This document shows, piece by piece, positions 6,512 through 63,730 of a DNA stretch of 64,000 bases. The position numbers and the translations under genes were made by a program. Numbering within the stretch: the stretch's first letter is position 1; every line of letters starts with the position of its first letter. Origin of the DNA: Chiloscyllium plagiosum (taxonomy: Eukaryota); assembly GCF_004010195.1 (NCBI RefSeq), contig NC_057754.1, positions 3,037,649 to 3,101,648 of the forward strand. Reading direction: 5' to 3'. The notes under the pieces are model-generated. The model saw nothing but the letters and a program-made list of their open reading frames with translations, did not search any database and was not told the DNA's origin.

Positions 6512-6589
6512 CTGCAAGCACAGAACACACATGGAATGGTGAAACCTTAACACAGCTCCATGCCCAGTGCTTTCCTCACAGTCGGCACA

Positions 6590-9944: not shown

Positions 9945-10059
9945 CTGCAGGAGAGAGAGAGTCCAGTACAGTTGGTCGTACGGCCAGCCCGGGTCCTACG
10001 TTCACTCCCATCCCTCAGACTCAGAAGAGAAATCTAACATAGCTTACATCTCTACACAA

Positions 10060-10712: not shown

Positions 10713-11004
10713 GGGATACAGTGCCACACTTGCAAGAGATCTATCAGAGTGTGTGCATTGTTCAAGCCCCCTTGTCTCAGGTAGGGTATACTTACCGTGG
10801 ATGGAAAACCGAGGAACTTCCTGACCTCCGACAGATGGTAGCATGAGGAGAGGTTGGGTAGGTTGGGCCTGTACCCATTGGAGCTTTGAAGAATGTGGGC
10901 AGGACTTATACAGTTAATGAGGTAAAAACAATGACTGCAGATGCTGGAAACCAGATTCTGGATTAGTGGTGCTGGAAGAGCACAGCAATTCAGGCAGCAT
11001 CCGA

Positions 11005-12515: not shown

Positions 12516-12634
12516 TCTAAATACAATCAAAATTCTCCCGCTCCCCGCTAGCAGCAGAGACCGGCCACCTATCCCTGTCTTCCCCACCCTCTGACTTTCA
12601 GCACAGCGACGCGGGAAAGGACTGGGAGACTCAC

Positions 12635-12835
12635 CGAGACGTACACGTCCGCTTCAATCCCGTTCAGTTTCAGCCTGAGCGGCTGCTCCTTGCTGGACAG
12701 GGCAGTGTACCTACCAGGCCACCGTCGGGGGAGAGCTGCCCCCTCCCCACCCAAGTACCAGTAGGTGCCGAAGATCCTGTCCATGTCACGTGCCAGGCAG
12801 CTACAGTTGGACAGCACCACCCCCAGCTCCTTGAC
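12635..12835 (-). CDS. PLD3-like exon
   Basis: gacag|VKELGVVLSNCSCLARDMDRIFGTYW...EADVYVS|gtgag; 201 nt, phase 0 to 0. Confidence 0.95.
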
Positions 12836-14779
12836 CTGTCAGCAGAACGCGAGGAGAGGGGAAATGTGAGCCACTGAAGAATTACATTACCCTGGCGCCT
12901 ACCTCTACTTCCCGAGCCAACGGATCCGCAACTCAAAACGCGTGCATAGTAGGATCCCAACAACCCACCTGGCCTGGTTTCCGTGACTGGGTACAAATAT
13001 CAAACCCGGGGCCCTGTGCAGGGCACAGCTGCCCGCGTTCCCCACACTTCTGACTTGCCCTTTACTTTTCAATCATTCCCGGGATGTGGGCATCTCTGGC
13101 CAGGCCAGCGCTTACTGCCCCATCCTAATTACCCAGAAGGCAACTGAGAGTCAACCACATTGCCGTGGGTCTGGAGTCACATTTAGGCCACATCGGGTAA
13201 GTTTGGCATTTTCCTTCCCTGAAGGGCATTAGTGAACCAGATGGGTTTTTCCAACAATCAGCAATTCACCCATGGTCATCGTTAGGCTCTTAATTCCAAA
13301 TTTTGTTTCATTTTGAAAATTAATTCAAGTTCCACCATGTTGGGATTTGAATAGGTCCCCAGCACATCACCAGGAGTCTCTGGATCAATAGCTTGGAGAT
13401 AACACCACTAGGCCATCACCTCTTCTTCCTGTTGGATCTTCCTTGTCTACCTTCAGGGATTGGTGAGGTGGGTTTACTATCCAGCCAATGGATAGGCACC
13501 TTCAACAATGCTCTCTGTTGGCCTGGATTTGCACTGGACCCCAGTGCAGGAACTTACAGCCCCACAACTTCCTAAGAAGAGTGGACAGAGCTGTTCCTCT
13601 GACAGGGCCACGACAGCAGACTAGAATCTCACCCACACCCTGAACACCTCCCAGCAGGTCACTGGAAAGTAATTACCTGATTAAAACCTTCTTCCCCAAC
13701 CCACACACAGAGGCACGACACAACTATTTGGTTACCATGACGCTTTGATCTAACGATAGCAATAACCGACATGAGTTGTCCTTCACTAACAGCCCCTCGG
13801 GCCATTACAGACGGTGATTAAGAGTTAACCCCCATTGCTGTGGGTCTGGAACCGTGTGTGCGTGTGGGCCAGACTGGGTAAGGATGGCAGATTTCCTTCC
13901 CTGAAGGGCGGTGGTGAAACGGATGGGTTTTTGTGACAATCTTTGATGGTCATTATCATGGAGAGGAGCTGGATGTTCCAGGTTTCACAGTGGCCTACTG
14001 CCTCACAGCACTAGGGACCTGGGTTTCTGGGTTTGATTCCACCCTCAGGCAACTGCGTGTGTGTGTGTGTGTGTGTATAAGGGGGGTTTCCTTTCAAAGA
14101 TGTGCAGGTTAGTGTGGATTGGCCATGCTACATTGCCCCATAGTGTGCAGGCTAGGTGGGTTAGCCATGGGAAATTGGTGGTTGGTCGCTTTTTGGTGTG
14201 GACTCATAGAGTCATAGAGATGTACAGCATGGAAACAGACCCTTTGGTCCAACCCTTCCATATATACCAACCCAATCTAGTCCCAATGGCCTGTTTCCAT
14301 ACTGCAAGGAATTCTATGAAGTTCCATCAGCAGCTGTGCCAAGATTTGAACCGGTGGCCTCATCATCAGAGTGGGCCTCTGGATTATCTAGCGCAGTGAC
14401 ATTACCATTACACCAGCCCCTCCTCCCACCAAAAGCAGGTCTCGAGTGGTTGGCCACCTCAGGGTGAATGAATAAGCTTTGCATTGGATGATCGCCCTTT
14501 GATGGTGGGCACCAGTTTGATGCCCATCTTTCACCGGACTTCGTGGAGATGAGGGGAACGAGAGAAGAGACTGAAGGAATCTCTGAAAAGTGGGGGAGGT
14601 GCAGAAAGTTGGAATTCAGGCCACAACTGGATCAGCCACTCCCTTGTGGAATGGAGAAGCAGGCTTGGAGGGACCGAATGGCCGCCCTTTGCTTAGGGTT
14701 GCGTCCTCTGAACCATCGGTGGTTGGTCTCCCCAGGGGCCTCTAAGCGCACACCACCGCCACCCCTCCCTGTTAGTTAC

Positions 14780-14907
14780 CTGGGTCAGTGAGCGCCAGTC
14801 CATGTTGGCGCTGCCGATGTAGACATGGCGTCCATCGACCACCCAGACCTTGGTGTGGACAATGCCACCCGTCAGGTTTTTCAGGAACACATGCCTCACC
14901 TCAGCAC
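14780..14907 (-). CDS. PLD3-like exon with first HKD motif
   Basis: tgcag|(G)[42 protein letters not shown]|gtaac; 128 nt, phase 1 to 0. Confidence 0.97.
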
Positions 14908-16109
14908 CTGCACCACAAAACAGCACAGTCAGACGAGAATCAGAGCGTGACTCAGAACATAGACTGACAACAGGAACTTACCGTGAGCAATAGATCTCCA
15001 GACCTTTGGAGTACTAAGGATATCCAGAACGATGCGCAGGAAGCAGAGTTGGTGGAGGACAGGAAGATTGCTACAATCCTTTCCTTAAAATTTTTAACCA
15101 AAGGATGTGGCTGGGCCTGCATTTATTGCCTGTTCCTAATTGCCCAGAGGGCAGTGAAGAGTCAACCACATCGCTGTGGGTCTGGGGTCACCAGTAGGCC
15201 CAGACCTCAGGCAAGGACAGTAGTTCCCTTTCCTGAAGGACATTATTGAACATGAGATGGATTTTTGCAACAATGGTTTCATGGTCATCATTGGTCTTGA
15301 TTCCAGATTCTTTTTACTGAATTCAAATAGCACCACATGCTGTCATGGGGTTCAAACACAGGTTTCCCAGGTCTCTGAGACCGTGGGCCTCTGGATTATT
15401 ACTCAGGGTAAAACCATTAGACCTTCACCTCCCCTCCAGGAGCTAGGAAGCTGTAGGGTCACCACTATTGAACATCCATGGTCTCATTCAATGGGGGGGG
15501 GGGTAGAAGAAGACTCAATGGGCTGAATGGCCTTCCCCCACTCCACTCCTATAGTCTTACGGTCTCGTGAACAGAACGGTGAGAGGGCGATTGACCTGAA
15601 GGCAGAAGAGATCAGATCGTTCCAAGTCGGGTATCCCGCAAGTTTGTTGCCAACGTTGGATTCATCAAATCTTAGTAGGAAGGGGGCAGGAAAATGCAAA
15701 AAGGAAGATAGAAATCTGGAATAAATGGCCTACTGGGGTAGGCTTCTGAAGCAAATGTATAAAGGGAATGAATTAAAACAATATGTGGTCGGCATGGACA
15801 GGTTGGACCAAAGGGTCTGTTTCCATGCTGTACATCTCTCTGACTCTATAAGAGGGCTTGACAGAGAGGGAGACAACACACAAATATTGTGGTCCAAAAA
15901 TTTCAAAGAACTTGAGGAAGCAGCAGTGTGCTTCCCCTGTGGCCGAATAGCCTGCCACCATTCACAGTGGCCAAGGGGCTACTAACAATCCTGGCAAGAA
16001 TTTGGGGTTATCCTGGTGGCGAATGTTGAGGGAGAGTTGGACGGGGGTGGTGGTCATACGGAGGGACAGGAACATAGAGGAGGCGGCAGTCAGTAAACAA
16101 GGGACTCAC

Positions 16110-16224
16110 CGCTTTTCGCCAGATCGCCTGTGTCTTTTTCAGACTGCTGGGGGCTGTTGACAGCGATCTTCAGGGTAATCCCTCGTGATTTCAAACCCGC
16201 CAGCTGCTTAAAGACCTGCTCACC
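16110..16224 (-). CDS. PLD3-like exon
   Basis: cgcag|GEQVFKQLAGLKSRGITLKIAVNSPQQSEKDTGDLAKSG|gtgagt; 115 nt, phase 0 to 1. Confidence 0.93.
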
Positions 16225-16297
16225 CTGCGCACAAACCACATCGCTAAAATTAGGGCGTGAGGCAACTCCACAGAATATCCCGTCACCGAGTCACCAC

Positions 16298-16832
16298 TTA
16301 GAGTCATAGAGATGTACAGCACGGAAACAGATCCTTCGGCCCAACCCGTCCATGCCGACCAGATCTCCCAACCCAATCCAGTCCCACCTGCCAGCACCCG
16401 GCCCATATCCCTCCAAACCCTTCCTATTCATATACCCATCCAAATGCCCCTTAAATGTTTCAATTGTACCAGCCTCCACCACTTCCTCTAGCAGCTCATT
16501 CCATACACGCACCACCCTCTGTGTGAAAAAGTTGCCTCTTGGATCTCTTTTATATCTTTCCCTTCTCACCCAAAACCTATGCCCCTCTAGTTCTGTACTC
16601 CCAGGGAAAAGACTTTGTCTATTTATCCTATCCATGCCCCTCATGATTTTGTAAACCTCTATAATGTCACCCCTCAGCCTCCGACGCTCCAGGGAAAACA
16701 GCCCCAGCCTGTTCAGCCTCTCCCTGTAGCTCAAACCCTCCAACCCTGGCAACATCCTTGTAAATCTTTTCTGAACCCTTTCAAGTTTCACAACATCTTT
16801 CAGATAGGAAGGAGACCAGAATTGCACACCAT
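16298..16832 (-). mobile_element. Young 5'-truncated CR1/HER1 LINE
   Basis: Open VQFWSP..KLERVQKRFTRMLPGLEGLSYRERL..NFFTQRVVRVWNEL and CTCTATGACTCTA tail. Confidence 0.95.
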
Positions 16833-17924
16833 AGCCTCTAATTGACACGGGGGGAGTCCTTGACCCCAGGAAGGCCCCCACTGGGCCAGCTCTCAGAGTG
16901 AACAGAACCTCTGACACTCCCCTGTTAATTTTCCTTTGGCCAGCTGGCTCAGAGTCAGCCCCCTGAACGGAGGAGATTCTAAATCTCCACTCAGGGTTAT
17001 TTCTTCTCTCTCTCTCTCTCTCTCTCTCTCCACCCCCACCCTACCGCCTAACATCGGTAGTGCTTATTCAGTCCCCAGCGCCCATGTCGCGCGTGTGTGT
17101 AGGTGTCGGACACAGTGAAGAATAACAAATACAGAAATTTTTATCCCTATTCCACCGCCAGGAAGAAAGGAAACACCCCAGTGGCCAGTGACAAGCAGTG
17201 CCCTTCTCGGAGGGCAATGCTGTGTGATCAAACAGTGAAGGGGAGGGCAGGGATTGCCTCAAAATAGAGTCGGAGGGGGAAATAAAACCCTCCACACCCT
17301 GCGGTGCCCACCTCTCCCTGAAAACCTCGAGGGTGCTGGTAGACACCGCGTGCTCCTTCTCTGGGGACACCTCTTCACCTGTTTATATCTGTCATCCCTG
17401 GTTGTACCAGGTTAACCTGATGAAGGGCTTTTGCCCGAAACGTCGATTTTCCTGCTCCTCGGATGCTGCCTGACCTGCTGTGCTTTTCCAGCACCACTCT
17501 AATCTAGACTCTGGTTTCCAGCATCTGCAGCCCTCACTTTTGCCAAGGTTAACAACCCCAAACAGGGAGCTCGCCTTCTATAAGGTTCACCTGGCTGACC
17601 TCATTATACAGCTTTAAACTAATCGAAGGAAGCCCAGTGTCTCTCAGAGAGCAAGTACAACTGGTTGGAAAATCTCATCCGTTTGGAAACGTTTGCCTGA
17701 AGGGAAGGCCAACACTTATTGCCCATCCCTAATTGTCCGAGGGACTAACTAGGGCCATTACAGAGGGCAGTTAGGAGACAAACCACATTGCTGTGGTTGT
17801 GGAGTCACATGCAGGCCAGACAGGGCCCAGATTTCGTTCCCAAAACCGGACGCTTTTCCCTGGCAGGTTTTAGCGATTGAAATTTTGATTAGTGATGGAG
17901 AAAGCATTACAGGAAGTGCAGGCT

Positions 17925-18974
17925 TGAAAGTGGAGTGACGGGTAGGCAGGATAGTGAAGAAGGCGTTTGGTATGGCTTGCCTTTATTGGTCAGTGCACTG
18001 ACTATGGGAGTTGGGAGGTCTGTACAGGACATTGGTCAGGCCACTTTTGGAATACTGCATTCAATTCCCTGCCACAAGCAGGAGGTTGTGAAACGTGAAA
18101 GGGTTGAGAAAAGATTTACAAGAATGTTGCCAGGGTTGGAGGGTTTGAGCTACAGGGAGAGGCTGACTACACCAGCACCGCTTTCCCTGGAGCGTTGGAG
18201 GCTGAGGGGTGACCTTATAGAGACTTATAAAATCATCAAACGCATGGATAGGCTAAATAGTCAAAGTCTTTTCCTCGGGGTAGGGGAGTTCAGCACTAGA
18301 GGGCTGAGGTTTAAGGTGAGAGGGAAAAGGTTTAAAAGGGATCAGAGGGGCTACTTTTTTCACACAGAGGGTGGTGTGTGTATGGAATGAGCTGCCAGGA
18401 GAAGTGGTGGAGGCTGGTACAATGACAACATTTAAAAGGCACCTGGATGGGTATGTGAATAGAATAGCCTTTAGTGTGAATGGTAGGGAATTAGAGTTTG
18501 CGATTTTTGTAAAGATTTGTAGCTCAGGGCTGAGGTTCAGGTTGTAAGTTTGCTCACTGAGCTGGAAGACTGGCTCTCAGACGTTTCGTCACCATGCTGG
18601 GTAACATCATCAGTGAGCCTCTGATGAAGCGCTGGTGTTGTGTCTCGCTTTCTATTGGTGTGTCTAGGTCTAAACAAAAAGACAGAACGCGCCCAGAGAC
18701 TCTAGCCACATTACCACACATTAAAGGCATCTCGGAGATGGCAACCAGACTACTCCAGCCCCTTGGCATCGTGGTAGCCCATAAACCTACCAACACACTG
18801 AAAGAGCTCTTGATGAACCTAAAGGACCCTGTACCAACAACCAGCAGAATTAATGTCATTTACAAAATACCCTGCAAGGCCTGCGACAAAATACATCAGA
18901 CAGACGAGCAGGAAACTAGCTACCAGGATACATGAGCACCAACTGGCCACCAAAGGACACGACCAACTATCACT

Positions 18975-19005
<31 letters not shown>

Positions 19006-19412
19006 GATGAGGGGTACCAGTCCGACTGGGATAATACATCCATCCTAGACAATGCACGGGAATCCTTACAGGCCTGGCACTCAAACCGAAACTCCATCAA
19101 CAAACACATCGATTTGAACCCCATTTACCAAACTCTCAGAAACACAACCTGAAGTGATAACACCCACCACATCACGAGACACATCAATAGAAAGCGAGAC
19201 ACAACACCAGCGCTTCATCAGAGGCTCACTGATGATGTTACCCAGCATGGTGACGAAACGTCCGAGAACAAGTCTTCCAGCTCACCGAGCAAACTCACAG
19301 CCCGGATTTGGAGGGATATGGGCCAAATGCTGGCAGATTAATTTGGGATATCTGGTCGGCACGGACAAGGTGGGTTGAAGGGTCCGTTTGCGTGCTGTAC
19401 ATCTCTGTGACT
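17925..19412 (+). mobile_element. CR1/HER1 3' fragment interrupted by a Penelope element
   Basis: CR1 ORF to ~18460; tail resumes at ~19304 (GGATTTGGAGGGATATGGG). Confidence 0.9.
18500..19303 (+). mobile_element. Penelope-like element: GIY-YIG endonuclease remnant between inverted terminal repeats
   Basis: TLPHIKGISE..LLQPLGI..HKPTNTL..NVIYKIPCKAC..QTSRKLATRIHEH..SINKHIDL; ~18545-18660 is the reverse complement of ~19180-19295. Confidence 0.92.
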
Positions 19413-19466
19413 CCAGGACTCTTACGTGTGTATAAGCCAGGCAAGGATTGAGAAAGCACTGTTCAC

Positions 19467-19650
19467 CTGAGAGGCTGAAGGATCCCCTTGGCTCAGGTCA
19501 CCGCCCCGCAATGTGAAGTAAAAGGCTGCGATTTCCACAGTGTGGTTGGCCTGATCGAGGAGATCCATCCAGCCGTTGTAGATGGAGACATGGTGAGGGG
19601 CACCTTTGGAGAACGAAAGTCCGATCGGAATACTCTCCACCAGAGTCAAC
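19467..19650 (-). CDS. PLD3-like exon (start of the catalytic domain)
   Basis: tttgcag|(x)LTLVESIPIGLSF...WMDLLDQANHTVEIAAFYFTLRG...SASQ|gtgaac; 184 nt, phase 2 to 0. Confidence 0.95.
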
Positions 19651-21399
19651 CTGCAAACCAAACAATACTCACACGGATCTCTCCCGGGATTTAAATGTCC
19701 CAGAAGCAGCCAGGGTGCCTCCGTGCCGATCTCCCGTTCCCTGGACATCTCCGCTACTGCCTCATGTGCCAACTCACTTGCTGTGCTCGCTTACCCTCAC
19801 TGGTGGCCAGTCAATTCTTACTCTGTAACCTCCTCCCTGCACCTACTCCTACACCCCCTCCCTGTCTCTGTCACCCCCTCCAGCCCCTACACCCCTCCCT
19901 ATCTCTGTCACCCNNNNNNNNNNNNNNNNNNNNNNNNNNNNNNNNNNNNNNNNNNNNNNNNNNNNNNNNNNNNNNNNNNNNNNNNNNNNNNNNNNNNNNN
20001 NNNNNNNNNNNNNNNNNNNNNNNNNNNNNNNNNNNNNNNNNNNNNNNNNNNNNNNNNNNNNNNNNNNNNNNNNNNNNNNNNNNNNNNNNNNNNNNNNNNN
20101 NNNNNNNNNNNNNNNNNNNNNNNNNNNNNNNNNNNNNNNNNNNNNNNNNNNNNNNNNNNNNNNNNNNNNNNNNNNNNNNNNNNNNNNNNNNNNNNNNNNN
20201 NNNNNNNNNNNNNNNNNNNNNNNNNNNNNNNNNNNNNNNNNNNNNNNNNNNNNNNNNNNNNNNNNNNNNNNNNNNNNNNNNNNNNNNNNNNNNNNNNNNN
20301 NNNNNNNNNNNNNNNNNNNNNNNNNNNNNNNNNNNNNNNNNNNNNNNNNNNNNNNNNNNNNNNNNNNNNNNNNNNNNNNNNNNNNNNNNNNNNNNNNNNN
20401 NNNNNNNNNNNNNNNNNNNNNNNNNNNNNNNNNNNNNNNNNNNNNNNNNNNNNNNNNNNNNNNNNNNNNNNNNNNNNNNNNNNNNNNNNNNNNNNNNNNN
20501 NNNNNNNNNNNNNNNNNNNNNNNNNNNNNNNNNNNNNNNNNNNNNNNNNNNNNNNNNNNNNNNNNNNNNNNNNNNNNNNNNNNNNNNNNNNNNNNNNNNN
20601 NNNNNNNNNNNNNNNNNNNNNNNNNNNNNNNNNNNNNNNNNNNNNNNNNNNNNNNNNNNNNNNNNNNNNNNNNNNNNNNNNNNNNNNNNNNNNNNNNNNN
20701 NNNNNNNNNNNNNNNNNNNNNNGGAGGAGGGTGAGAGGGGGGGGGGGGGGGGGGGGGGGGAGAGGGAGGGGGAGAGAGAGAGAGATATAGAGAGGGAGGG
20801 GGAGAGAGGGAGATGGGGGTGGAAGAGATGGAGAGACAGGGAGGGAGAGAGACGGAGAGAGACAGAGAGAGAGAGAGAGACGGGGGTGGGGGAACAAAAC
20901 AGGCAATCACCAAGAGTGGCAAGCATTGAGAGCACCTTCCTATTGCTGAAGCCACCCACGGTCGAATAGCTAGCCCAGACTCACAAGGTTGGCTCCATGG
21001 GCAGAATGTGACAGATCTGCTCAAATCACCACCCCGTACGCCGTCACAGGTCAGAGGGCATTTCCACCATGTGAGGCATCACAGTACATTCCGATGCTAT
21101 GCCCCCTCCCTGCAATGCACAAGTGTGAATGTGCGGGGGTGGGGGGGGGGGTTAGGGGGAATGACCAGGCTGGACAGGGCTTAGACAGAAAAGGACCTGA
21201 TTCCAATCCCTGTGTCCTGAACGTATCCACCTCCCCACCACCCCCCACCAACCACCCACCCCACCCCCGGCGACCATTGCTCATTCCCCATACCCTCCGA
21301 CCTCGCATCCAAGGACAGCAGAGGCCATTTGAAAATGAGGGGTGTGTGTGACGAGAAAGTCCCTCATCACTCATGTCTCATCATTACCATCACCTCCAT

Positions 21400-21800
21400 A
21401 CCGTGCTGACCCTGTCCTGGGGAGTGTTTGATGGGGGGACAGTGTAGAGGGAGCTTTACTCTGTATCTAACCCCGTGCTGTCCCTGTCCTGGGAGTGTTT
21501 GATGGGGGACAGTGTAGAGGGAGCTTTACTCTGTATCTAACCCCGTGCTGTCCCTGTCCCTGCAAGTGTTTGATGGGGGACAGGGCAGAGGGAGCTTTAC
21601 CCTGTATCTAACCCCGTGCTGTCCCTGTCCTGGGAGTGTTTGATGGGGGACAGTGTAGAGGGAGCTTTACCCTGTATCTTACCCCGTGCTGTCCCCTGTC
21701 CTGGGAGTGTTTGATGGGGGACAGTGTAGAGGGAGCTTTACTCTGTATCTAACCCCGTGCTGTCCCTGTCCCTGCAAGTGTTTGATGGGGGACAGGGCAG
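21400..21800. repeat. ~70-bp shark satellite (CCCTGTCCTGGGAGTGTTTGATGGGGGACAGTGTAGAGGGAGCTTTACTCTGTATCTAACCCCGTGCTGT)
   Basis: ~5.5 tandem copies; another array at 32036-32625. Confidence 0.95.
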
Positions 21801-23390
21801 ATGGGGTTAGGAAGAGGGTGAAGGGCTGGAGGAGGTGTATGGGGTTAGGAAGAGGGTGAAGGGCTGGAGGAGGTGTATGGGGTTAGGAAGAGGGTGAAGG
21901 GCTGGAGGAGGTGTATGGGGTTAGGAAGAGGGTGAAGGGCTGGAGGAGGTGTATGGGGTTAGGAAGAGGGTGAAGGGCTGGAGGAGGTGTATGGGGTTAG
22001 GAAGAGGGTGAAGGGCTGGAGGAGGTGTATGGGGTTAGGAAGAGGGTGAAGGGCTGGAGGAGGTGTATGGGGTTAGGAAGAGGGTGAAGGGCTGGAGGAG
22101 GTGTATGGGGTTAGGAAGAGGGTGAAGGGCTGGAGGAGGTGTATGGGGTTAGGAAGAGGGTGAAGGGCTGGAGGAGGTGTATGGGGTTAGGAAGAGGGTG
22201 AAGGGCTGGAGGAGGTGTATGGGGTTAGGAAGAGGGTGAAGGGCTGGAGGAGGTGTATGGGGTTAGGAAGAGGGTGAAGGGCTGGAGGAGGTGTATGGGG
22301 TTAGGAAGAGGGTGAAGGGCTGGAGGAGGTGTATGGGGTTAGGAAGAGGGTGAAGGGCTGGAGGAGGTGTATGGGGTTAGGAAGAGGGTGAAGGGCTGGA
22401 GGAGGTGTATGGGGTTAGGAAGAGGGTGAAGGGCTGGAGGAGGTGTATGGGGTTAGGAAGAGGGTGAAGGGCTGGAGGAGGTGTATGGGGTTAGGAAGAG
22501 GGTGAAGGGCTGGAGGAGGTGTATGGGGTTAGGAAGAGGGTGAAGGGCTGGAGGAGGTGTATGGGGTTAGGAAGAGGGTGAAGGGCTGGAGGAGGTGTAT
22601 GGGGTTAGGAAGAGGGTGAAGGGCTGGAGGAGGTGTATGGGGTTAGGAAGAGGGTGAAGGGCTGGAGGAGGTGTATGGGGTTAGGAAGAGGGTGAAGGGC
22701 TGGAGGAGGTGTATGGGGTTAGGAAGAGGGTGAAGGGCTGGAGGAGGTGTATGGGGTTAGGAAGAGGGTGAAGGGCTGGAGGAGGTGTATGGGGTTAGGA
22801 AGAGGGTGAAGGGCTGGAGGAGGTGTATGGGGTTAGGAAGAGGGTGAAGGGCTGGAGGAGGTGTATGGGGTTAGGAAGAGGGTGAAGGGCTGGAGGAGGT
22901 GTATGGGGTTAGGAAGAGGGTGAAGGGCTGGAGGAGGTGTATGGGGTTAGGAAGAGGGTGAAGGGCTGGAGGAGGTGTATGGGGTTAGGAAGAGGGTGAA
23001 GGGCTGGAGGAGGTGTATGGGGTTAGGAAGAGGGTGAAGGGCTGGAGGAGGTGTATGGGGTTAGGAAGAGGGTGAAGGGCTGGAGGAGGTGTATGGGGTT
23101 AGGAAGAGGGTGAAGGGCTGGAGGAGGTGTATGGGGTTAGGAAGAGGGTGAAGGGCTGGAGGAGGTGTATGGGGTTAGGAAGAGGGTGAAGGGCTGGAGG
23201 AGGTGTATGGGGTTAGGAAGAGGGTGAAGGGCTGGAGGAGGTGTATGGGGTTAGGAAGAGGGTGAAGGGCTGGAGGAGGTGTATGGGGTTAGGAAGAGGG
23301 TGAAGGGCTGGAGGAGGTGTATGGGGTTAGGGAGAGGGTGTAGGGGCTGGAGGAGGTGTATGGGGTTAGGAGGAGGGTGTAGGGGCTGGA
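21801..23390. repeat. 38-bp G-rich minisatellite (ATGGGGTTAGGAAGAGGGTGAAGGGCTGGAGGAGGTGT), ~41 copies
   Basis: Essentially identical tandem copies, degenerate only at the right end. Confidence 0.97.
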
Positions 23391-23570
23391 AGTGGTGACA
23401 GAGATAGGGAGGGATTTCAAAACAAGCAGCCGGACCCTTGTCAAATTGAAATATTTTCCTAACAGCAATCTCTGTGGGATTCCTCAGATCGCAGGTCTTC
23501 TCACATTCACCAACCATCTCCTGCAGTGACCAGCAGCTGACCTTCAAGCCCAGACCATTGTAATACTGAC

Positions 23571-23798
23571 CTTGACCACAGGAGGGACCATGATGCTCCT
23601 GGGGGTCTCCTGGTGCTCAGTTCCATCCTCCTCTTCCTCCTTCTGTTCTTCCTCCCCTTCCTCCTTCTTCATCCTCCTTTGCTTCAAATCTAAGTCTGCC
23701 TTCACCTTCTGCAGAACAACCTGAAGTGGTTTCAAATTAACCTGATGGAACATGACCCACTCTGAAATTAGGCGCTGGCGCAGTGCTTTCACCGTGCG
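23571..23798 (-). CDS. Candidate N-terminal exon of the PLD3-like gene (charged, E/K-rich)
   Basis: Pyrimidine tract + cacag|RTVKALRQRLISEW...KKEEGEEEQKEEEED...PPVVK|gtcagt; 228 nt, open, phase 0 to 0. Confidence 0.6.
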
Positions 23799-24169
23799 CT
23801 GTGATATCACACAAGAGAGAGATACAGGAGAGGGTAGACATGTCTAACTGGTTCCTCAATGCCCTGTCCATTCTGGGACAGAAAGGACACCCTACCTCCA
23901 AAACGAAGCACTTTGTAAAACATACTTTTTGTGTGTACAACTCCCATACACAGCAATGTGAGCATGATCCAGATCATTTGATTTTGGTGTTGTTGGTTGA
24001 GGGATAAATATTTGCCCCCAGGACTCCAGAGAGAACACCCTCTCGCTCATTTACCAATAGTAGCCACTCGATTCTCTTACACACATAATCAGACCCACAG
24101 TCATCTATACGTACAACCTTGACCCTTCGAGAGGGCAGGGGTAGCTCAGCAATTAATGTCTCATCTGAA

Positions 24170-25550
24170 AGATAACACACCCGACAGCATGGCACTCCCT
24201 CAGTACTGACCCCCCCGACAGTGCGGCGCTCCCTCAGTACTGACCCCCCGACAGTGCGGCGCTCCCTCAGTACTGACCCCCCCGACAGCATGGCGCTCCC
24301 TCAGTACTGGCCCCCCAACAGCATGGCGCTCCCTCAGTACTGACCCCCCNNNNNNNNNNNNNNNNNNNNNNNNNNNNNNNNNNNNNNNNNNNNNNNNNNN
24401 NNNNNNNNNNNNNNNNNNNNNNNNNNNNNNNNNNNNNNNNNNNNNNNNNNNNNNNNNNNNNNNNNNNNNNNNNNNNNNNNNNNNNNNNNNNNNNNNNNNN
24501 NNNNNNNNNNNNNNNNNNNNNNNNNNNNNNNNNNNNNNNNNNNNNNNNNNNNNNNNNNNNNNNNNNNNNNNNNNNNNNNNNNNNNNNNNNNNNNNNNNNN
24601 NNNNNNNNNNNNNNNNNNNNNNNNNNNNNNNNNNNNNNNNNNNNNNNNNNNNNNNNNNNNNNNNNNNNNNNNNNNNNNNNNNNNNNNNNNNNNNNNNNNN
24701 NNNNNNNNNNNNNNNNNNNNNNNNNNNNNNNNNNNNNNNNNNNNNNNNNNNNNNNNNNNNNNNNNNNNNNNNNNNNNNNNNNNNNNNNNNNNNNNNNNNN
24801 NNNNNNNNNNNNNNNNNNNNNNNNNNNNNNNNNNNNNNNNNNNNNNNNNNNNNNNNNNNNNNNNNNNNNNNNNNNNNNNNNNNNNNNNNNNNNNNNNNNN
24901 NNNNNNNNNNNNNNNNNNNNNNNNNNNNNNNNNNNNNNNNNNNNNNNNNNNNNNNNNNNNNNNNNNNNNNNNNNNNNNNNNNNNNNNNNNNNNNNNNNNN
25001 NNNNNNNNNNNNNNNNNNNNNNNNNNNNNNNNNNNNNNNNNNNNNNNNNNNNNNNNNNNNNNNNNNNNNNNNNNNNNNNNNNNNNNNNNNNNTGCAGTGC
25101 TCTCAGAGTACAGAGCCTCAGACAGTGCGGCATTCCCTCTGGACTGAACGTCTGACAGCATGGTGCTCCCTCAGTACTGACCCTCCGACAGCATGGTGCT
25201 CCCTCAGCACTGACCCTCCGTCAGTGCCCACTCCCTCAGCACTGACCCTCCCACAGTGCCCACTCCCTCCGTACTGACCCTCCGACAGCACAGTGCTGCC
25301 TCAGCCTTGACCCTCCGACAGTGTAGCACTCCCTCAGCATTGACCTTCCCACAGTGCGGCACTCCATCAACACTGGCCCTCTGACAGCGCGGCACGCCCT
25401 CAGCCTTGACCCTCCAAAAGCACAGCGCTCCCTCAGCACTGACCCTCCCACTGTGCCTGCTCCCTCAGCACTGACCCTTCGACAGTGCCCACTCCCTCAG
25501 CACTGACCCTCCGACAGTGCCCACTCCCTCAGCACTGACCCTCCGGCTGC
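24170..25550 (-). repeat. 33-bp minisatellite apparently derived from a DeuSINE internal segment, spanning an N gap (24350-25092)
   Basis: Reverse complement of GTCAGTGCTGAGGGAGCGCCGCACTGTCGGAGG; followed by SINE-like TCTTTCAGATGAGACATTAA. Confidence 0.85.
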
Positions 25551-28138
25551 ATTGAACTCTTCCCACTCTGGCACTGGGAGTATGAGCAAAAGTGTCGAGA
25601 GTGAATACTCGATTCCCTTTTCGTGAGAAAAACCATGACTAACAGCTGGGAATGAGGTGGCTGGCCCATTGGCTCGGACAGAGAGAGATAAAAACAGAGT
25701 CGCAGAGTGAGGCGCTGGAAAAGCACAGCAGGTCAGGCAGCATCCGAGGAGCAGGAGAGTCAACATTTCAGGAATGGCTTATTCTGCTCCTGGGATGCTG
25801 CCTGACCTGCTGTGCTTTTCCAGCAACACACTCTTCAAATCTGATCTCCAGTGCTCACTTTCTCCCAGAAATAAAGACAGACAGAGACTGAGAGAGAGAG
25901 ACTGACAAAGAGACCGAGAGAGACAGAGTGAAAAAGATACAGAGAGAAAGAGAGAGAAGGGGTTAGATGGCAGAGCTGTTGGGTAAGAATAGCAGAGACT
26001 CTTCTCGTGAAAGGATAACACCTCCACACACCAGGAGAGGGCACTATCTGCACATACCACAGACTGTGTCTGAGTTGCTTCCCTCCATAGGAACAGTAAC
26101 AGTAACAATACTGAGGTACAGTATCAGAACCAAAACTCTCTACCTGCGATACAAAGTACCTGCAGTGACTCACAGCGATACACCAAAGTGGAACACAACT
26201 AGGGGAGGTTGTAGAACGAGATCGGGTGTGAGGAAGGAAGGAGATGTGAAGTACAGCCAACAACAATGTGCATTCCTGTAGCGCCTTTACGTGACATACC
26301 ATCCTCCTGGCAGTATAACCCAACAGGTTTTGACCCTGAGCCACATTATTAGGGGCAGACTCGTCCAAAGAATTTGCTTTAATGAGGGTCTTGGAGGAGC
26401 GAAAGGGAGAGAGAGAGAGAGAGACAGCAAGGTTTAGGGAAGGGAAATCCAGAGCTTAAGAGTCCCAGGAAGCTGAAGGAATGGTCACTAATGCTGAATG
26501 ATGGGAATTGGGGGATGCTCAAGGGGCCCGGAATCGGAGCACAGATGTAGGGCTGGAGGGGGTGACAGAGATAGGGAGGGGGTGTAGGGCTGGAAGCGTG
26601 ATAGAGATAGGGAGGGGGTGTAGGGGGTTACAGAGATAGGGAAGGGGGTGTAGGAGCCAGAGGAGGTTACAGGGATAGGGAGGGGTGCAGGGGATGGGAG
26701 AGATTACAGAGGTAGGGGAGGGGACTTGGGGCTGGAGGAAATGACTGAGCTAGGGAGGGGATCTTGGGGGCGTCTGAGTTGTATGTCCCGTTATAACACA
26801 CCAACTGCAGCGCAATACATCAGGCAGACAGCTCCCCTCTCCAACCTGCCCAAAAGCTTTATCCGAATCCTCTACCCCAACCTTTAAAAGCTTGTGGTCC
26901 CACTGTCCCTCTGGCTGGAGACTGAGATACCATCTGGATGACAGGACCTGTTAACAGCTCCCTCTCTATGTAAAAACAATGCAAGTGCATTTGCATAGCA
27001 CCTATCACAACCTCAGGATGTCTCAATGCCTGTTCACAGCCAAATGTCAGCACTGTCAGCAATGCAGGAAATGCACTGGCCATGCACAGCAGGATCCCAC
27101 ATACAGCGACTAACCAGCAAATCATCTGCCTTTGGGAAGTTAGTCGGAAGTAAAGAGGTTTCGTAATTTATTTACAAAACTGAAAACCCCTGGGGGAGGT
27201 GCTGGAGGTCAGAAAAAACGAAACAGGCTGGAAACACTCTGAGGGACAGGGAGTGGGGGGGACACTGAAACAGTTAGCGATCCATTCCTAGGACCCTTCA
27301 CCAGAACTGGGAAGGAGAGTGAGATGTGAATGGGGGTGTTAGTGCCAAGCAGAACGAGATGACAAAGGGATGGAAGACATGTGTAGAGGAGGTGTGAACG
27401 GTAGCAGAAGGCAGAGGGATGATGGTCATCTCACTGGACTAGTGGTGGGGGGGGTCATTTGATTATAAGACCAAAAGACATAGGAGTGGAAGTAAGGCTA
27501 TTCGGCCCATCGGGTCCACTCCACCATGGCTGGTGGCCATTTCAATGCCACTTACCCACACACTCCCCATATCCCTTAATTGCTTGCACGATTAAGAATT
27601 TATCAATCCCTGCCTTGAAGACACGTAACGTCCCAGTCTCCACTGCGCTCCATGACAATGAATTCCACAGGCCCACCACTCTCTAGCTGAAGGAATGTCT
27701 CCTCATTTCCGTTTTAAATTGACCCCCTCCAATTCCAAGGCTGTGCCCACGGGTCCCAGTCTCCCCGCCTGACGGAAACACATTCCCAGCATCCACTCTT
27801 TCTAAGCCATGCATTATTTTGTAAGTTTCTATTAGATCTCTCCTCAATGTTCTAAACTCTCATGAATGCCATCCCAGGATCTTCAGCCGTTCATCATATG
27901 TTAGGCCTAGCCTTGGTGAGACTTAAATCCCACCCCTAAAACAGGGTGGGGTGAGGCTGGGGAGAGAACAATGGGTGAATGGGGGAGGGGGTGGAGGTGA
28001 TCCGAGGAGCAGGAAAATCAAAAAGCCCTCTTGCTGATTTCTCAATCCCCTGCTGAATTCCCTGTGTCCTTTTCTCAGTCCAACCCATCAATTTGATTGA
28101 AATACCTGATGTTAACATTGCCCCCCCCCCATACTCAC

Positions 28139-28297
28139 CGGCTCAGCCTCCTCCTCCTCTATCCTTGCTGTCGCACTGCTCCTCAGGGTTCTGGAGCTCC
28201 CACGGATAGGATTCCTGGGCGTCAGGACCAGCATTTCGCTGGACCGGGAATCTGCTTGCTCCTGGCTCTCGGTTTCCGTCTCTCCCTCTTCTTGAAC
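28139..28297 (-). CDS. Candidate N-terminal exon of the PLD3-like gene
   Basis: gagcag|VQEEGETETESQEQADSRSSEMLVLTPRNPIRGSSRTLRSSATARIEEEEAEP|gtgagt; 159 nt, phase 0 to 0. Confidence 0.55.
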
Positions 28298-28392
28298 CTG
28301 CTCCCAGGACAGGAAACACAGCACATCGCTGACTCCGTGGTAAAACGATTCCCCAGCTCCAGGCTTCCCAGTGCAACCTCCTCCCAGAATGT

Positions 28393-29370
28393 AGGCACAG
28401 CAGAGTGGCTTTAGTGGTTAGCACTTCTGCCTCACAGCTCCAGGCACCTGGGTTCGATTCCACCCTCGGGTGACTGCACAGGGTTTGTACATCCCCCCCG
28501 CCCCCCCAACCATGTCGGCGTGGATTTCCTCCAGGTGCGCTGGTTTCCTCCCACAGTCCAAAAATGTGTAGGTTAGGGTGGATTGGCCATGGGAAATTGT
28601 CCCATAGCGCCCAGGGATATGCAGGTTAGGGTGGATTGGCCATGCTAAATTGTCCCATAGTGCCCAGGGATGTGCAGGTTAGGGTGGGTTGGCCGCGCTA
28701 AATTGTCCCATAGTGCCCAGGGATGTGCAGGTTAGGGTGGATTGGCCATGCTAAATTGCCCCATAGTGCCCAGGGATGNNNNNNNNNNNNNNNNNNNNNN
28801 NNNNNNNNNNNNNNNNNNNNNNNNNNNNNNNNNNNNNNNNNNNNNNNNNNNNNNNNNNNNNNNNNNNNNNNNNNNNNNNNNNNNNNNNNNNNNNNNNNNN
28901 NNNNNNNNNNNNNNNNNNNNNNNNNNNNNNNNNNNNNNNNNNNNNNNNNNNNNNNNNNNNNNNNNNNNNNNNNNNNNNNNNNNNNNNNNNNNNNNNNNNN
29001 NNNNNNNNNNNNNNNNNNNNNNNNNNNNNNNNNNNNNNNNNNNNNNNNNNNNNNNNNNNNNNNNNNNNNNNNNNNNNNNNNNNNNNNNNTGGCCATGCTA
29101 ACTTGTCCCATAGTGCCCAGCGATGTGTAGGTTAGGGTGGATTGGCCACGCTAAATTGTCCCATAGCGCCCAGGGATTTGCAGGTTAGGGTGGATTGGCC
29201 ATGCTAAATTGTCCCATAGTGCCCAGGGATGTGCAGGTTAGGGTGGATTGGCCATGGGAAATTGTCCCATAGTGTCCAGGGATGTGTAGGTTAGAGTGGA
29301 TTAGCCATGGGAAATGTAAGGTTTTGGGGAAAGATTGGGGTGCTCCTCAGAGGGTCAGTGTAGACTTTTA
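28393..29370 (+). mobile_element. HE1 SINE with large 53-bp tandem expansion across an N gap
   Basis: Head at ~28393; units on both sides of gap 28779-29089. Confidence 0.88.
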
Positions 29371-30875
29371 GATTAGATTAGATTACAGTGTGGAAACAGG
29401 CCCTTCGGCCCAACAAGTCCACACCGACCCGCCGAAGCGTAACCCACCCATACCCCTACATTTACCCCTTACCTAACACTACGGGCAATTTAGCATGGCC
29501 AAGACTTGGTGTCTCCTTTCTGCACAGAATCCCCCACACTCTGGGAAGATGCCATTTCAGCCCATCGTGTCCCGGACTAGCTCTCTCTAACCACCCCTTA
29601 AATATCCAAATAATCATGCAATGCTCAGCTGAACCTGCCCCCCCACCACCACCACCACCACATTTCCAGGCGATACCTTTCAGACTGTAACCTCTCCCTG
29701 GGTGGGGGAGAAAAATAAAATTGCTTCCCACAGCGTCTTTGTTTCGTTTCCAACACAATTTAAAACGTGTGATCTCTGAATTCTGAATGCTTTCCCGCAT
29801 CTTTGCCCAGGCCCCTCACTTCATCCCGCAGACCCGGTAATGTCTGCTGACAATTTCAGGGCTGCTTTTCGAGTTGTTCCTTTGCAATTGAGAATGGGGG
29901 CAATTAATTTTCCACTCACGTCTCTCTGGGGGGGGGGGGGGTTGGTTTCTTTCTTTGGCGCCAAAAGTGATCAGAAACTGAAACAGTGAAAGAAATTGCT
30001 GCGTCCACTTCCGGGAATGCTTTGTGGAGAAATAAGTTTTGAAAAATGCAACATTTCGTTTAATCTTAATGCGGTGCACATGAAGGGATGGAGGTGAATC
30101 CCCAACTCTCTCCGTCCCTGTCACGTTTGAATATAAGTGCTTTAGGGGGAACTTGTCAGCTTTGGAAATTGATACAGTTAAAAATGTTGCAATAAGGCGT
30201 TGATATCGACAAAATAAAACACAGGAATGCACATTTAACTTCTGTTACCATCCTAGGGTCAGCACACACACACACAGACATCATAGTCGAAGGTCCTAGA
30301 CAAGGGGATGCCAATTACATTAAGTTTCACTGGCTAATTTCACGAATGCTGGAGATTTCAGGGAGGACCACAAATTTGGTCACGGTTTTTAAAGCGTGCA
30401 GTCGAATCGGTCCCCAGTAGTTTTACAAAATGGTATCACTTTACGTCTCTCTCTCTCTCTCTCGAAGATGCACAAACCTGCCCTTTCAGTCGCTTCGACT
30501 TCCTCCGTTGCACCTCGACCCTCCTTGGCATTGCAAAGCGAGACGAAATCTTTGCCCCCACTCCCCACTGAAACAAAACTTTGTTTTAAAAGACTTCTTC
30601 AAAGTCACTGCTGGCCACTTGCTTTGTTGGGGTTTTTGTTGTTGTTGTTGTTTGCAGTGACGTTTTTAGGAAACGGGCGATAACCACCTTCTGGCCAGCA
30701 AAGCAACAGCCAGCTCCCACAACAGAGACTTTCAAATTTAAACCGGTTTGTCAGTTAGAGCGGGGATTTTTTTTTAAAAAAAATATATCTTTCCTGTTCC
30801 GTCCCTCAGGCAGCAATAAGGCTGCCCTCCAGTGGTCCCACAGCCAACTTTCATGTCACTGAAGTTGTCTCTCAC

Positions 30876-53260: not shown

Positions 53261-53571
53261 TTCTCTGAGGAACATCCAAAGACGGTGAAAGTTATCCGAT
53301 AAATATGGAAGCTGCTTGCGTATTGGGGTTGAGGTTGAGGCTGTGGAGCAGGCCATTCAGCCCATCGAGCCCCTTGCTGTGTTTGTGGTAGACCAGTTGC
53401 CCGTCCAGTGTCACTCAATGATCCTTCTCCACTCTCTCTCTTTTCTCTTCCAGGATGAGCGAGGCCTGGGGATTCCTGTGAGTCTGACACCATCCCTGAT
53501 TCTCCCCCACCCCCCACCCCCCCCCACTCCCGACACACGGTTCACACCTCCTCTTCTCCCCCCCCCCCCCG

Positions 53572-55146
53572 ATGGAGTTCCCTGACCATGGTCGTTTGCT
53601 GCTGCAGAGCCTGCGGGACCAGAGACACCAGGGCTTCCTGTGTGACTGCACGGTGCTGGTGGGGGCGGTGCAGTTCCAGGCCCACCGGGCCGTGCTCGCC
53701 TCCTTCAGCACCTACTTCCACATGTTCTACAAGGAGGAGGCGGTAGGCCGCAGGGACGTAGTGGGCCTGGACGACGAGATAGTGACGGCGCCGGCCTTCT
53801 CCCTGCTGCTGGAGTTCATGTACGAGGGCCGGCTCCGCTTCAGCGGTGCGCCCACCGAGGATGTGCTGGCTGCGGCCAGCTTCCTGCACATGAACGACAT
53901 CGTCAAGGTGTGCAAGGGCCGGCTGAAGGCCCGGGCCCTGGCGGAGGCTGACAGCACCCGCAAGGAGGATGAGGCCCAGCAGCAACCGGGAGCAGGGGGA
54001 GGGCTCGGCCTATCCGCCTCCTACCGGGGGGTCGTGCCTCCCCCACCCGTCCCTCCCCTGCAGCCCCCACCGCCCTCTCGGAGACAGCCCCCGGCGCCAG
54101 CGGAGCTGCCCTACGCCTCGGGGGGCGAGGAGGACAGGGCCGGAGCCTCCCTCCTGCTGCTGCAGCCCCCCGAGGCACCGGCCCCCGGTCGCTGGCCCCC
54201 CGAGCCGGCCGACACCACCACCAGCAGCCAGGCCAGCATGGAGACCGAGGCCTACCCCAGCAGGCCGGCCGGCAACGTCCTGGCCAGCCCTTCCTCCTCC
54301 ACGGCGGAGGCCCCCTGCCCTCGCTGGGCCGGGCTGTCGGGCAGCAGGAGGAGGCCCCACCAGGAGGAGGAGGAGGAGGGTGGGGAGGAGGAGGCAGGGG
54401 ACGGGGACACTGAGGACGACGGCGATCTGATCACGGTCAAGGTGGAGGACGACCTGTTCTCCGAGGAGGAGGCCGGAGAGGAACCGCCTGAGGGCGATGC
54501 TCCCGAGGAGGTGGAGGCCGCTGCTGCCTCCTGCTGCCCGCAGCTCGATGACCTCTTCCAGCAGCCACCGGCGGAGTTAGCCCAGGCCCAGACCCCGGCC
54601 TTGGCCTGTGGAGGGGGAGGGGGCCACATCGTCATCTCGGACGAGGATGAGATGCCGTCGGAGGATGACGCGTTCCCGGCTCCTGGCCTCTACCACCACC
54701 GGGGTCTCCCACCCCCCGCCCCACAGGCCTCTCCGGGAGACTTGGGCTCCCCTGCCGCCTTGGGCCTTTCGGCCAAGCTCTACTTCCAGGACCTGCCGCC
54801 AGGGCCAGGGCCAGGGCCTGGGCCGGGCCCAGCCGGCTCAGAGGATGAGCTGCCGACCTGCGGGGCCTGCGGCAAGACTTTCTCCTGTGCCTACAGCCTG
54901 AAGCGGCACGCCCTGGTGCACACCCGCGAGAGGCCCCATAGCTGCCGCTTCTGTCTCCGTCGCTACTCACAGTCCGGGGACCTGTACCGCCACATGCGCA
55001 AGTACCACAACGCCCACGTCTCGTCGTCATCCCCTGGACCAGGCCCCGGACCAGGCCCTGGTCCCGGACCCAGCCCCGGCCGACAGGACTCCTCCAACGG
55101 TGGCTGGAAGTGGATGGACAAGCCTCCTTCAGAACAGTGGAAATGA
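53572..55146 (+). CDS. ZBTB3: Zinc finger and BTB domain-containing protein 3 (524 aa, BTB plus two C2H2 fingers), single coding exon; acceptor at 53453
   Basis: [43 protein letters not shown]; fingers [50 protein letters not shown]; two fingers and the [12 protein letters not shown] pattern fit ZBTB3 rather than four-finger ZBTB18/42. Confidence 0.93.
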
Positions 55147-62855: not shown

Positions 62856-63195
62856 TGAATACAAAATTTTTGCAGATAATACTTGCCTCGATGATTGCAT
62901 TAAAAAAATGCAAGAATGAAAACACAGGTAAGGGATTCACTCTACACTGGACAAGAACTGGGACTGCAAAGCAGATAACTGGCAGATTGTGGAACTTTCG
63001 GAGGAATTTGGCGGATGGTTCAGAGGTAGTACTGTAGCGTATTCAGGAAGAGCCCCGAAATGGGGAAATCCATGTTTTGGTCAGTGTTGGTTGGCAAGCC
63101 GGTGGTCCTCGGGGAGTATGAGTATCGAACAGTGAGGAATAGGCCAGTTGGATGTCCTGTCTCTTTCTCTCTCCCTCTCTGGGTCACATTCATCC

Positions 63196-63249
63196 TCAGA
63201 AGAGCTGGATCATGGATTCCCGGGCCTGGCCTATTCCAATCCATTTAAA
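63196..63249 (-). pseudogene. ADSS: Adenylosuccinate synthetase-like, final exon with +1 frameshift
   Basis: ctgacag|TTTAAATGGATTGGA...: KWIGIGQARESMIQLF* matches the vertebrate ADSS C-terminus, but an extra T makes the spliced frame ATT TAA. Confidence 0.88.
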
Positions 63250-63580
63250 CTGTCAGGGTAAAAGAGGGGACGGAGGTTAAAACGGGGTTGGGGTAAACAC
63301 ACACAATTCTTCTGACACCAGAGCGAAAATGAGTGGAGAGCGAACCCATGCCCAACAACTCAAACTAATCACCTCAAACACAAGAGAAATCCACATTCTC
63401 AAACTGCTTCCCCTCACCACACCCCACAAATCTCTGTAACCAGAAAGAATGCCAGTTAGTGTCTCTCCTTGGTCTCAGAACAGATTGGTGTAACTCAGGC
63501 CCCCGGTGAGTCAGAGTGTTGGGGGGGAAAAAAAAAAATCAATCACTCCCTCAGCCCGCACACTCCACCCCGAAACTCAC

Positions 63581-63730
63581 TCGGCACCCCGACATGCTCC
63601 TCGATGAAGTGCACGTAACCCCTGGCGTTCTCAGGCAGCTCAGTGAAACTCCCCGCCTCCTTCGGGCTGCTCTTCCACCCGGCCAGGGTCACATACTCAA
63701 CCTGCACTTAGTGCAGCACCTCCTGGTTGG
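63581..63730 (-). pseudogene. ADSS: Adenylosuccinate synthetase-like, penultimate exon with in-frame TAA
   Basis: ttttctctccgcag|ANQEVLH*VQVEYVTLAGWKSSPKEAGSFTELPENARGYVHFIEEHVGVP|gtgagt; TAA at 63708-63710. Confidence 0.9.

What the first reader, a model, noticed from the sequence alone, without database searches (positions are those of the whole stretch)
63196..63730. Intron-containing ADSS copy with two disabling lesions: a decaying extra adenylosuccinate synthetase ohnolog
Seen: two exons with intact splice sites encode the ADSS C-terminus but carry TAA at 63708-63710 (a Lys position in ADSS2) and an extra T at the start of the last exon, plus changes at conserved residues (PGW to AGW, VRF to VHF). 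Known: mammals have ADSS1 beside ZBTB42 and ADSS2 beside ZBTB18. Inference: ADSS beside ZBTB3 is a further whole-genome-duplication paralog recently pseudogenised in this lineage (unitary, not processed).
Basis: partly seen in the sequence, partly recalled or inferred. Interest (0 to 1): 0.7.

Follow-up and report, generated by a model that had tools for sequence, protein, structure and literature searches.

The report
Dying third AMP-synthesis gene in shark
This white-spotted bamboo shark still transcribes, but has broken with a stop codon, a frameshift and exon skipping, a third copy of the AMP-making enzyme gene ADSS that stays intact in a sister species and in many fishes, amphibians and reptiles, so it is likely an ancient genome-duplication copy lost within the last 20 million years or so.

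Summary
Two minus-strand exons (63730-63581, 63249-63196) encode the end of an adenylosuccinate synthetase, with an in-frame TAA and one extra T. In spliced contigs from three public runs the extra T is present in 3 of 3. The TAA is on both haplotypes of the one run that resolves it. Two runs also skip the preceding 98-nt exon (TKLD motif). All four junction types that join ADSS coding exons end in an early stop.

The fragment belongs to neither ADSS1 nor ADSS2. It falls in a third jawed-vertebrate clade that databases call 'adssl' or 'ADSS2-like', beside ZBTB3 and a pld7-type gene. That gene is intact in Chiloscyllium punctatum, whale and zebra sharks, rays, chimaera, lungfish, bichir, newts, turtle and squamates. 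The neighbouring PLD gene matches C. plagiosum 409/409.

Verdict: a young, transcribed unitary pseudogene of a database-known ADSS copy that I found in no paper, likely an ohnolog. An ordinary kind of event, but a clean case of late loss with an intact sister species.

The parts
63581..63730 (-). Penultimate coding exon of the ADSS-like (adssl) pseudogene, 150 bp; matches residues 396-445 of the intact C. punctatum protein
   Evidence: both borders match splice joints in RNA-type contigs
63708..63710 (-). In-frame TAA at a Lys/Arg column (residue 403 of 462); 127 nt upstream of the last exon junction
   Evidence: present on both haplotypes of run X6
63250..63580 (-). Last intron, 331 bp, GT..AG, spliced out in RNA
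   Evidence: joint 63249/63581 'CT..AC' in 3 of 3 contig runs
63245..63249 (-). Frameshift: TTT where the phase-1 junction needs TT; puts a TAA (63247..63245) in frame right after the junction
   Evidence: no indel in the junction contigs of X1, X6 and X13
63196..63249 (-). Coding part of the last exon; out-of-frame KWIGIGQARESMIQLF-stop, 16/16 identical to the three intact carpet-shark orthologs
62860..63195 (-). Transcribed 3' untranslated region (laid part only; it runs on beyond 62860). Cryptic AG at 63109-63108 is used by an unknown upstream exon in X1. Untested poly(A)-like signals at 62551, 61802, 61410 and 60724
63635..63694 (-). Three segregating sites in the exon, all amino-acid changing: 63635 (P>S, column P in 66/66), 63665 (P>T, T is the ancestral state), 63694 (Y>C, column Y in 65/66)
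53569..55146 (+). ZBTB3 open reading frame (BTB domain plus two C2H2 fingers), tail-to-tail neighbour
   Evidence: top 9 named hits are cartilaginous-fish ZBTB3-like; no tree made
6303..29800 (-). pld7-type PLD3/PLD4-family gene, synteny and species marker; at least 11 exons mapped
   Evidence: 409/409 to the C. plagiosum model, 394/409 to C. punctatum, 390/409 to H. ocellatum

Best explanation
This is the 3' end of a third jawed-vertebrate adenylosuccinate synthetase gene (adssl, beside ZBTB3 and a pld7-type gene) that is still transcribed and spliced but carries a stop codon, a one-base frameshift and exon skipping, so it likely makes no working enzyme and was likely lost by neutral decay after the white-spotted bamboo shark split from the brownbanded one. 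Step 1 (inferred): whole-genome duplication in early vertebrates copied the block PLD-ZBTB-ADSS, giving ADSS1, ADSS2 and adssl. Step 2 (shown at protein level): adssl kept all catalytic motifs in most non-mammalian lineages but evolved faster than ADSS2 in carpet sharks. Step 3 (shown): in this lineage it gained the +1 T, the TAA and skipping of the 98-nt TKLD exon; each is predicted to remove parts of the GTP site. Step 4 (inferred): ADSS2 and ADSS1 cover IMP-to-AMP conversion, so the loss drifted. Promoter and splice sites still work because the loss is young. Step 5 (inferred): transcripts whose stop lies 116-127 nt before the last junction are nonsense-mediated decay targets. Forms spliced straight into the last exon escape, which would explain why skipped forms are so common.
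For: Lesions in reads: extra T in 3 of 3 contig runs from 3 studies; TAA on both X6 haplotypes. Four junction types between ADSS coding exons (canonical; GFTA exon to penultimate exon in X1 and X6; GFTA exon to last exon in X13; DIDF exon to last exon in X1) all end in an early stop. No intact allele or second copy at 88% or more likeness appears in X6. Orthology: the fragment is sister to C. punctatum ADSS2-like (95/90) within a third clade (99/98); AU p=3.4e-5 against ADSS2. The upstream tags read YACMINGFT (found only in 11 C. punctatum adssl rows) and ANATLLDIDF. Synteny: C. punctatum adssl (XP_072407184-197) and PLD3-like (XP_072407200-202) have near-consecutive accessions on one contig. 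adssl and ZBTB3 records share a contig length in 11 of 13 species where both were printed. ADSS2 and ZBTB18 have adjacent locus tags in Albula and Megalops. Relaxed constraint: 3 of 3 listed exon polymorphisms change amino acids, two at near-invariant columns. Core identity C. punctatum-Stegostoma is 93.7% for adssl against 97.0% for ADSS2. Age: the last exon is 16/16 intact, and the split from C. punctatum is put at 20.9 Ma (PMC7677710, passage).
Against: The TAA is resolved in only one of three contig runs, and X1 has 3 unlisted differences near it, so the stop may be polymorphic. The 5' three quarters of the gene lie outside the window and no genome was held, so why the TKLD exon is skipped is unseen. 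Contigs drop rare forms. No dN/dS was possible, and 3 of 3 polymorphisms is a small count. An intact full-length ADSS2 of C. plagiosum was not seen: only a 93-aa first-exon model, so redundancy in this species is assumed. Two species (Cetorhinus, Mobula birostris) did not share contig lengths; their ZBTB3 records sit on short scaffolds. Same-chromosome evidence is weak for the very large amphibian chromosomes. The tree has no invertebrate root and no shark ADSS1 row.
Confidence: 0.88

Rival explanations
1. The lesions are assembly errors and the gene is intact.
For: The assembly is gapped (6 N-runs), and the extra T lies in a short homopolymer.
Against: Spliced contigs from 3 runs of 3 studies carry the extra T; X6 carries the TAA on both haplotypes; exon skipping is independent of the assembly.
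Confidence: 0.02
3. The locus is kept for a new role: a regulatory RNA (tail-to-tail with ZBTB3) or a truncated N-terminal ADSS peptide from forms that escape decay.
For: RNA-type contigs are deep over the last exon and 3' region in X1 and X6. An unknown exon splices into a cryptic AG at 63109-63108. Opposed poly(A)-like signals lie 40 bp apart at 60684 (+) and 60724 (-).
Against: The splice forms differ between runs, and amino-acid-changing variants segregate at near-invariant columns, as expected from drift. No conservation of a new function was tested or seen.
Confidence: 0.04
4. A recent duplicate or retrocopy of ADSS2 or ADSS1 that decayed.
For: Sources name its relatives 'isozyme 2-like'.
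Against: It has a spliced intron at the ancestral position, sits at the same locus as the intact C. punctatum gene, and differs from shark ADSS2 at 22-24 of 50 residues against 7 of 50 for C. punctatum adssl. AU p=3.4e-5 against ADSS2. The ADSS1 grouping was not AU-tested, but ADSS1 is a separate 100/100 clade.
Confidence: 0.01

Closest known systems
adssl / 'adenylosuccinate synthetase isozyme 2-like' of Chiloscyllium punctatum (XP_072407184.1, P0058) and of Rhincodon, Stegostoma, Carcharodon, rays, Callorhinchus, Protopterus, Acipenser, Polypterus, newts, turtle and squamates
   Same: Same clade, same locus (PLD3-like and ZBTB3 neighbours), 43/50 and 16/16 residues identical to C. punctatum in the two exons, same intron position.
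   Different: Those models are full length with GDEGKG, NAGHT, TKLD and the C-terminal W-x-G-x-G motif intact in 24 of 24 clade rows. This copy has a stop, a frameshift and exon skipping.
ADSS2 (acidic, de novo AMP synthesis) and ADSS1 (basic, purine nucleotide cycle) of mammals; roles from a passage of PMC6215684
   Same: Same enzyme family (Pfam PF00709) and the same C-terminal exon layout. ADSS2 sits next to ZBTB18 as this gene sits next to ZBTB3.
   Different: Separate clades. An N-terminal KR-x-R/K motif is in 22 of 24 adssl rows and 5 of 5 scorable ADSS1 rows but 0 of 35 ADSS2 rows; that part of this gene lies outside the window.
Late, lineage-specific ohnolog pseudogenisation, e.g. sox15 in amniotes (PMC8244163, listing and start of abstract only); 'elusive' genes on ancestral microchromosomes (PMC10208646, passages)
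   Same: An old duplicate lost long after the duplication. The region lies on a contig of about 14 Mb in the named C. plagiosum record and shows high polymorphism.
   Different: A metabolic enzyme rather than a transcription factor; very young, still transcribed, with an intact sister species. ADSS is not mentioned in the main text of PMC10208646.

Membership tests
Adenylosuccinate synthetase family (PF00709) | Sequence match above the curated cut-off | tested here: met
   40.3 bits against cut-off 27, E=2.2e-10
Adenylosuccinate synthetase family (PF00709) | Complete reading frame with the GTP-binding elements (TKLD and the C-terminal loop; roles recalled, Asp333 seen only as a reference title) | tested here: not met
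   Stop at residue 403, frameshift at 446, TKLD exon skipped in X1, X6 and X13. It derives from the family but is not a working member.
adssl (third jawed-vertebrate ADSS clade) | Groups with adssl proteins, apart from ADSS1 and ADSS2 | tested here: met
   95/90 with C. punctatum, 100/100 with carpet sharks, clade 99/98; AU rejects ADSS2
adssl (third jawed-vertebrate ADSS clade) | Linked to ZBTB3 and a pld7-type gene | tested here: met
   Both lie in the window; shared contig lengths in 11 of 13 species for ZBTB3 and near-consecutive accessions for PLD in C. punctatum
Whole-genome-duplication ohnolog | Duplication older than the shark/bony-fish split, with paralogous neighbours | tested here: met
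   adssl and ADSS2 clades each hold cartilaginous and bony vertebrates; ADSS2-ZBTB18 adjacent locus tags. ADSS1-ZBTB42 linkage is recalled, not tested.
Whole-genome-duplication ohnolog | Single invertebrate ortholog and placement in the reconstructed 1R/2R paralogon | not tested
   No invertebrate row was fetched; the tree is unrooted and the hagfish row is long-branched
Unitary pseudogene | Disabled at the ancestral locus, introns kept, intact ortholog in relatives | tested here: met
Unitary pseudogene | No working copy elsewhere in the genome, lesion fixed in the species | tested here: inconclusive
   No genome held; no intact form in 3 contig runs; no C. plagiosum adssl among the 12 members of the ortholog cluster; few animals sampled
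Processed pseudogene | Introns absent, new location | tested here: not met
   331-bp intron present and spliced; ancestral locus

The most novel reading that the evidence does not exclude
Jawed vertebrates have a third, undescribed ADSS isozyme with a conserved NLS-like N-terminal motif (likely nucleus-directed). It was kept for over 400 million years from chimaeras to turtles, is absent from mammals, and is dying repeatedly in bamboo sharks (broken here, no model found in the epaulette shark, mostly incomplete isoform models in C. punctatum). The white-spotted/brownbanded pair would be a natural knockout for its function and for watching an ohnolog die.
Probability: 0.3. Interest if true: 0.55.

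Novelty: new member of a known kind. Interest (0 to 1): 0.33.

Why it matters
The papers I read list two ADSS isozymes, for mammals. Databases hold a third lineage under misleading 'isozyme 2' or '2-like' names, and my literature searches found no paper describing it. This window shows that lineage being lost in one shark within about 21 million years while a congener keeps an intact frame. That gives a dated, still-transcribed example of an ancient duplicate dying long after the duplication, and a species pair in which to ask what the third enzyme does. It also warns that RNA abundance at this locus does not mean function. The event itself, loss of a redundant paralog, is ordinary.

Tried and rejected
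Whole genome: none held, so the upstream exons, ADSS1 and ADSS2 of this assembly could not be read.

Raw single-cell RNA run X21: 1 read in about 2% of the run, in the 3' region only; uninformative on level or lesions. One search listed no holder on record as RNA; I read X1, X6 and X13 as RNA from their splice joints and exon-biased depth. Only 4 of 24 listed runs could be laid.

AGW and VHF as signs of decay: rejected. A compensating splice site: none among the joints. Retrocopy or ADSS2 duplicate: rejected.

A Pfam scan of 25-50 kb for lost neighbours such as an AKT paralog gave no result, so that interval is unexamined. Two unexplained contig ends are not in the window.

The 66-row careful tree did not finish and its quick version is used. 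The 42-row tree finished. Rows were hand-picked from the ADSS hits, and the turtle row was labelled adssl. The Anolis ADSS1 row could not be scored for the N-terminal motif and is dropped (the script printed 6/6; 5/5 is the valid count).

Literature: searches found no paper on a third vertebrate ADSS or on this pseudogene; subscription journals and supplements were not searched. A direct source for TKLD in ADSS was not found: concerns an SRP GTPase and one search gave only a reference title on Asp333. Earlier scan notes held nothing on this locus.

Full report
Observation. The minus strand holds a 150-bp exon at 63730..63581, a 331-bp GT..AG intron and a last exon from 63249. The first exon matches Pfam Adenylsucc_synt at E=2e-10 and human ADSS2 residues 393-442 in the PDB. 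It has TAA at 63710..63708, at a column that is K in 57 and R in 8 of 66 aligned proteins. The last exon starts with three T where two are needed. The spliced frame reads I-stop and the conserved 16-residue tail is out of frame. The real lineage changes are T>P, E>K and R>G (R or K in 66 of 66 rows).

Are the lesions real? One search listed 24 runs, and four were laid on 62860-63800. X1, X6 and X13 (three studies; X13 bears another organism label) behave as RNA: they show the joint 63249/63581, and depth is low or absent in introns. All three junction contigs fit without an indel, so the extra T is real. In X6, contigs 15, 16 and 17 cover the TAA and all their differences are listed elsewhere, so both haplotypes carry it. 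X13 ends five bases short. The X1 contig has four differences of which one is listed, so X1 is undetermined for the stop. The raw single-cell run gave one read, in the 3' region.

More damage shows in the RNA. Loose ends translate to YACMINGFT and ANATLLDIDF, upstream ADSS exons. In X1 and X6 the exon ending GFTA joins the penultimate exon directly. This skips the 32 residues LALTKLD...HFP of the C. punctatum protein (98 nt), shifts the frame and stops at 63699..63697. X13 joins the GFTA exon to the last exon, and X1 also joins the DIDF exon to it; both stop within a few codons. All four junction types between coding exons are dead ends. By the recalled 50-55 nt rule, stops 116-127 nt before the last junction should trigger nonsense-mediated decay while stops in the last exon should not. 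That would enrich skipped forms (inference). Three listed exon polymorphisms all change amino acids, two at columns with P in 66/66 and Y in 65/66.

Which gene? The best hits are 'isozyme 2-like' proteins of Chiloscyllium punctatum (86%) and whale shark. The 12-member cluster holds C. punctatum, Rhincodon and Stegostoma, with no C. plagiosum or Hemiscyllium entry. Trees of hand-picked rows (66 rows quick; 42 rows careful) give three groups: ADSS1 (100/100), ADSS2 (90/79) and a third clade (99/98). The third clade holds chimaera, sharks, rays, lungfish, bichir, sturgeon, salamanders, a caecilian, a turtle and squamates, plus one teleost. Sources name some members 'adenylosuccinate synthase, like'. 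No mammal or bird row of my sample falls in it; birds and frogs were not searched for it. The fragment, with X at both breaks, is sister to C. punctatum (95/90), and holding it with ADSS2 is rejected (p-AU 3.4e-5). All 24 clade rows keep the motifs scanned.

Synteny and species. The ORF at 53569-55146 is ZBTB3 by its nearest named hits. A PLD3/PLD4-family gene runs from 29800 to about 6303; its relatives include records named pld7. Over eight exons it matches the C. plagiosum model at 409/409, C. punctatum at 394/409 and H. ocellatum at 390/409, so the window is from the white-spotted bamboo shark. In C. punctatum the adssl and PLD models have near-consecutive accessions on one contig. adssl and ZBTB3 records share a contig length in 11 of 13 species: Heterodontus, Pristis, Rhinatrema, Liasis, Lissotriton, Ambystoma, Hemicordylus, Candoia, Zootoca, Varanus and Elgaria. 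The two misses, Cetorhinus and Mobula birostris, have ZBTB3 on short scaffolds. ADSS2 and ZBTB18 carry adjacent locus tags in two teleosts. A block duplicated before the shark/bony-fish split is therefore shown; whole-genome duplication is the likely cause, but the tree is unrooted.

Timing and mechanism. The sister species has a full-length model and the last exon is still 16/16 identical, so the loss postdates their split, given as 20.9 Ma (PMC7677710, passage; that main text does not mention ADSS). Constraint may have eased earlier. The carpet-shark stem is 0.14 for adssl against 0.033 for ADSS2. Core identity C. punctatum-Stegostoma is 93.7% against 97.0%. Only 1 of 10 C. punctatum isoform models is full length. 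The simplest account is redundancy with ADSS1 and ADSS2 in a fast-mutating region. Gene loss is enriched on ancestral microchromosomes (PMC10208646, passages), but I did not place this locus on one. An intact ADSS2 was not seen for this species, only a first-exon model.

What is known. Mammals have two isozymes, and fish ADSS genes were called uncharacterised in 2018 (PMC6215684, passages; PMC10912719, passages). Seven searches found no paper on a third vertebrate ADSS or on this pseudogene; subscription journals and supplements were not seen. Earlier scan notes report other unitary pseudogenes in this genome, which I did not test.

Verdict. A real, young, transcribed unitary pseudogene of a database-known but apparently unpublished third ADSS lineage. 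It is a new member of a known kind; interest 0.33.

Noticed in passing
window 6303-29800 (-): The PLD gene is nearer PLD4 than PLD3 in two exons and clusters with long 'PLD3-like'/pld7 proteins of fishes, coelacanth, newt and gecko. RefSeq names the C. plagiosum and H. ocellatum models 'PLD3', likely a misnomer for another paralog of the same duplicated block.
   Followed up: partly
proteins of the adssl clade (P0058, P0089, P0049, P0092 and others), outside the window: N-terminal KR-x-R/K motif, NLS-like, in 22 of 24 adssl rows and 5 of 5 scorable ADSS1 rows but 0 of 35 ADSS2 rows; often SPKR in sharks.
   Followed up: partly
No adssl protein of Hemiscyllium ocellatum or Scyliorhinus canicula appeared among the hits, although their pld7-type or ZBTB3 neighbours are annotated: possible further losses or assembly gaps.
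   Followed up: no
window 63107-63109 (-): A run X1 contig joins 159 unknown letters to a cryptic AG in the 3' region; the first 30 letters are not in the window and do not look like ADSS coding sequence.
   Followed up: partly
window 62860-63730: High polymorphism: 9 substitution rows and 4 indel rows in 941 bp among three runs. The run labelled organism B is identical to the window over 281 bp, while runs labelled organism A differ: a label difference, population structure or a very close relative sharing the frameshift.
   Followed up: no
window 60684 (+) and 60724 (-): Opposed AATAAA signals 40 bp apart between ZBTB3 and the pseudogene; possibly abutting 3' ends of convergent transcripts.
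   Followed up: no
P0140 (Chelonia mydas) and P0334 (Zootoca vivipara): Named plain 'isozyme 2' by the source but belong to the adssl group by tree or cluster: mis-annotation that hides the third gene.
   Followed up: partly
window 59260-59400 and 60250-60400: Two similar stretches of about 140 bp, 1 kb apart, seen by eye; probably a small repeat element.
   Followed up: no
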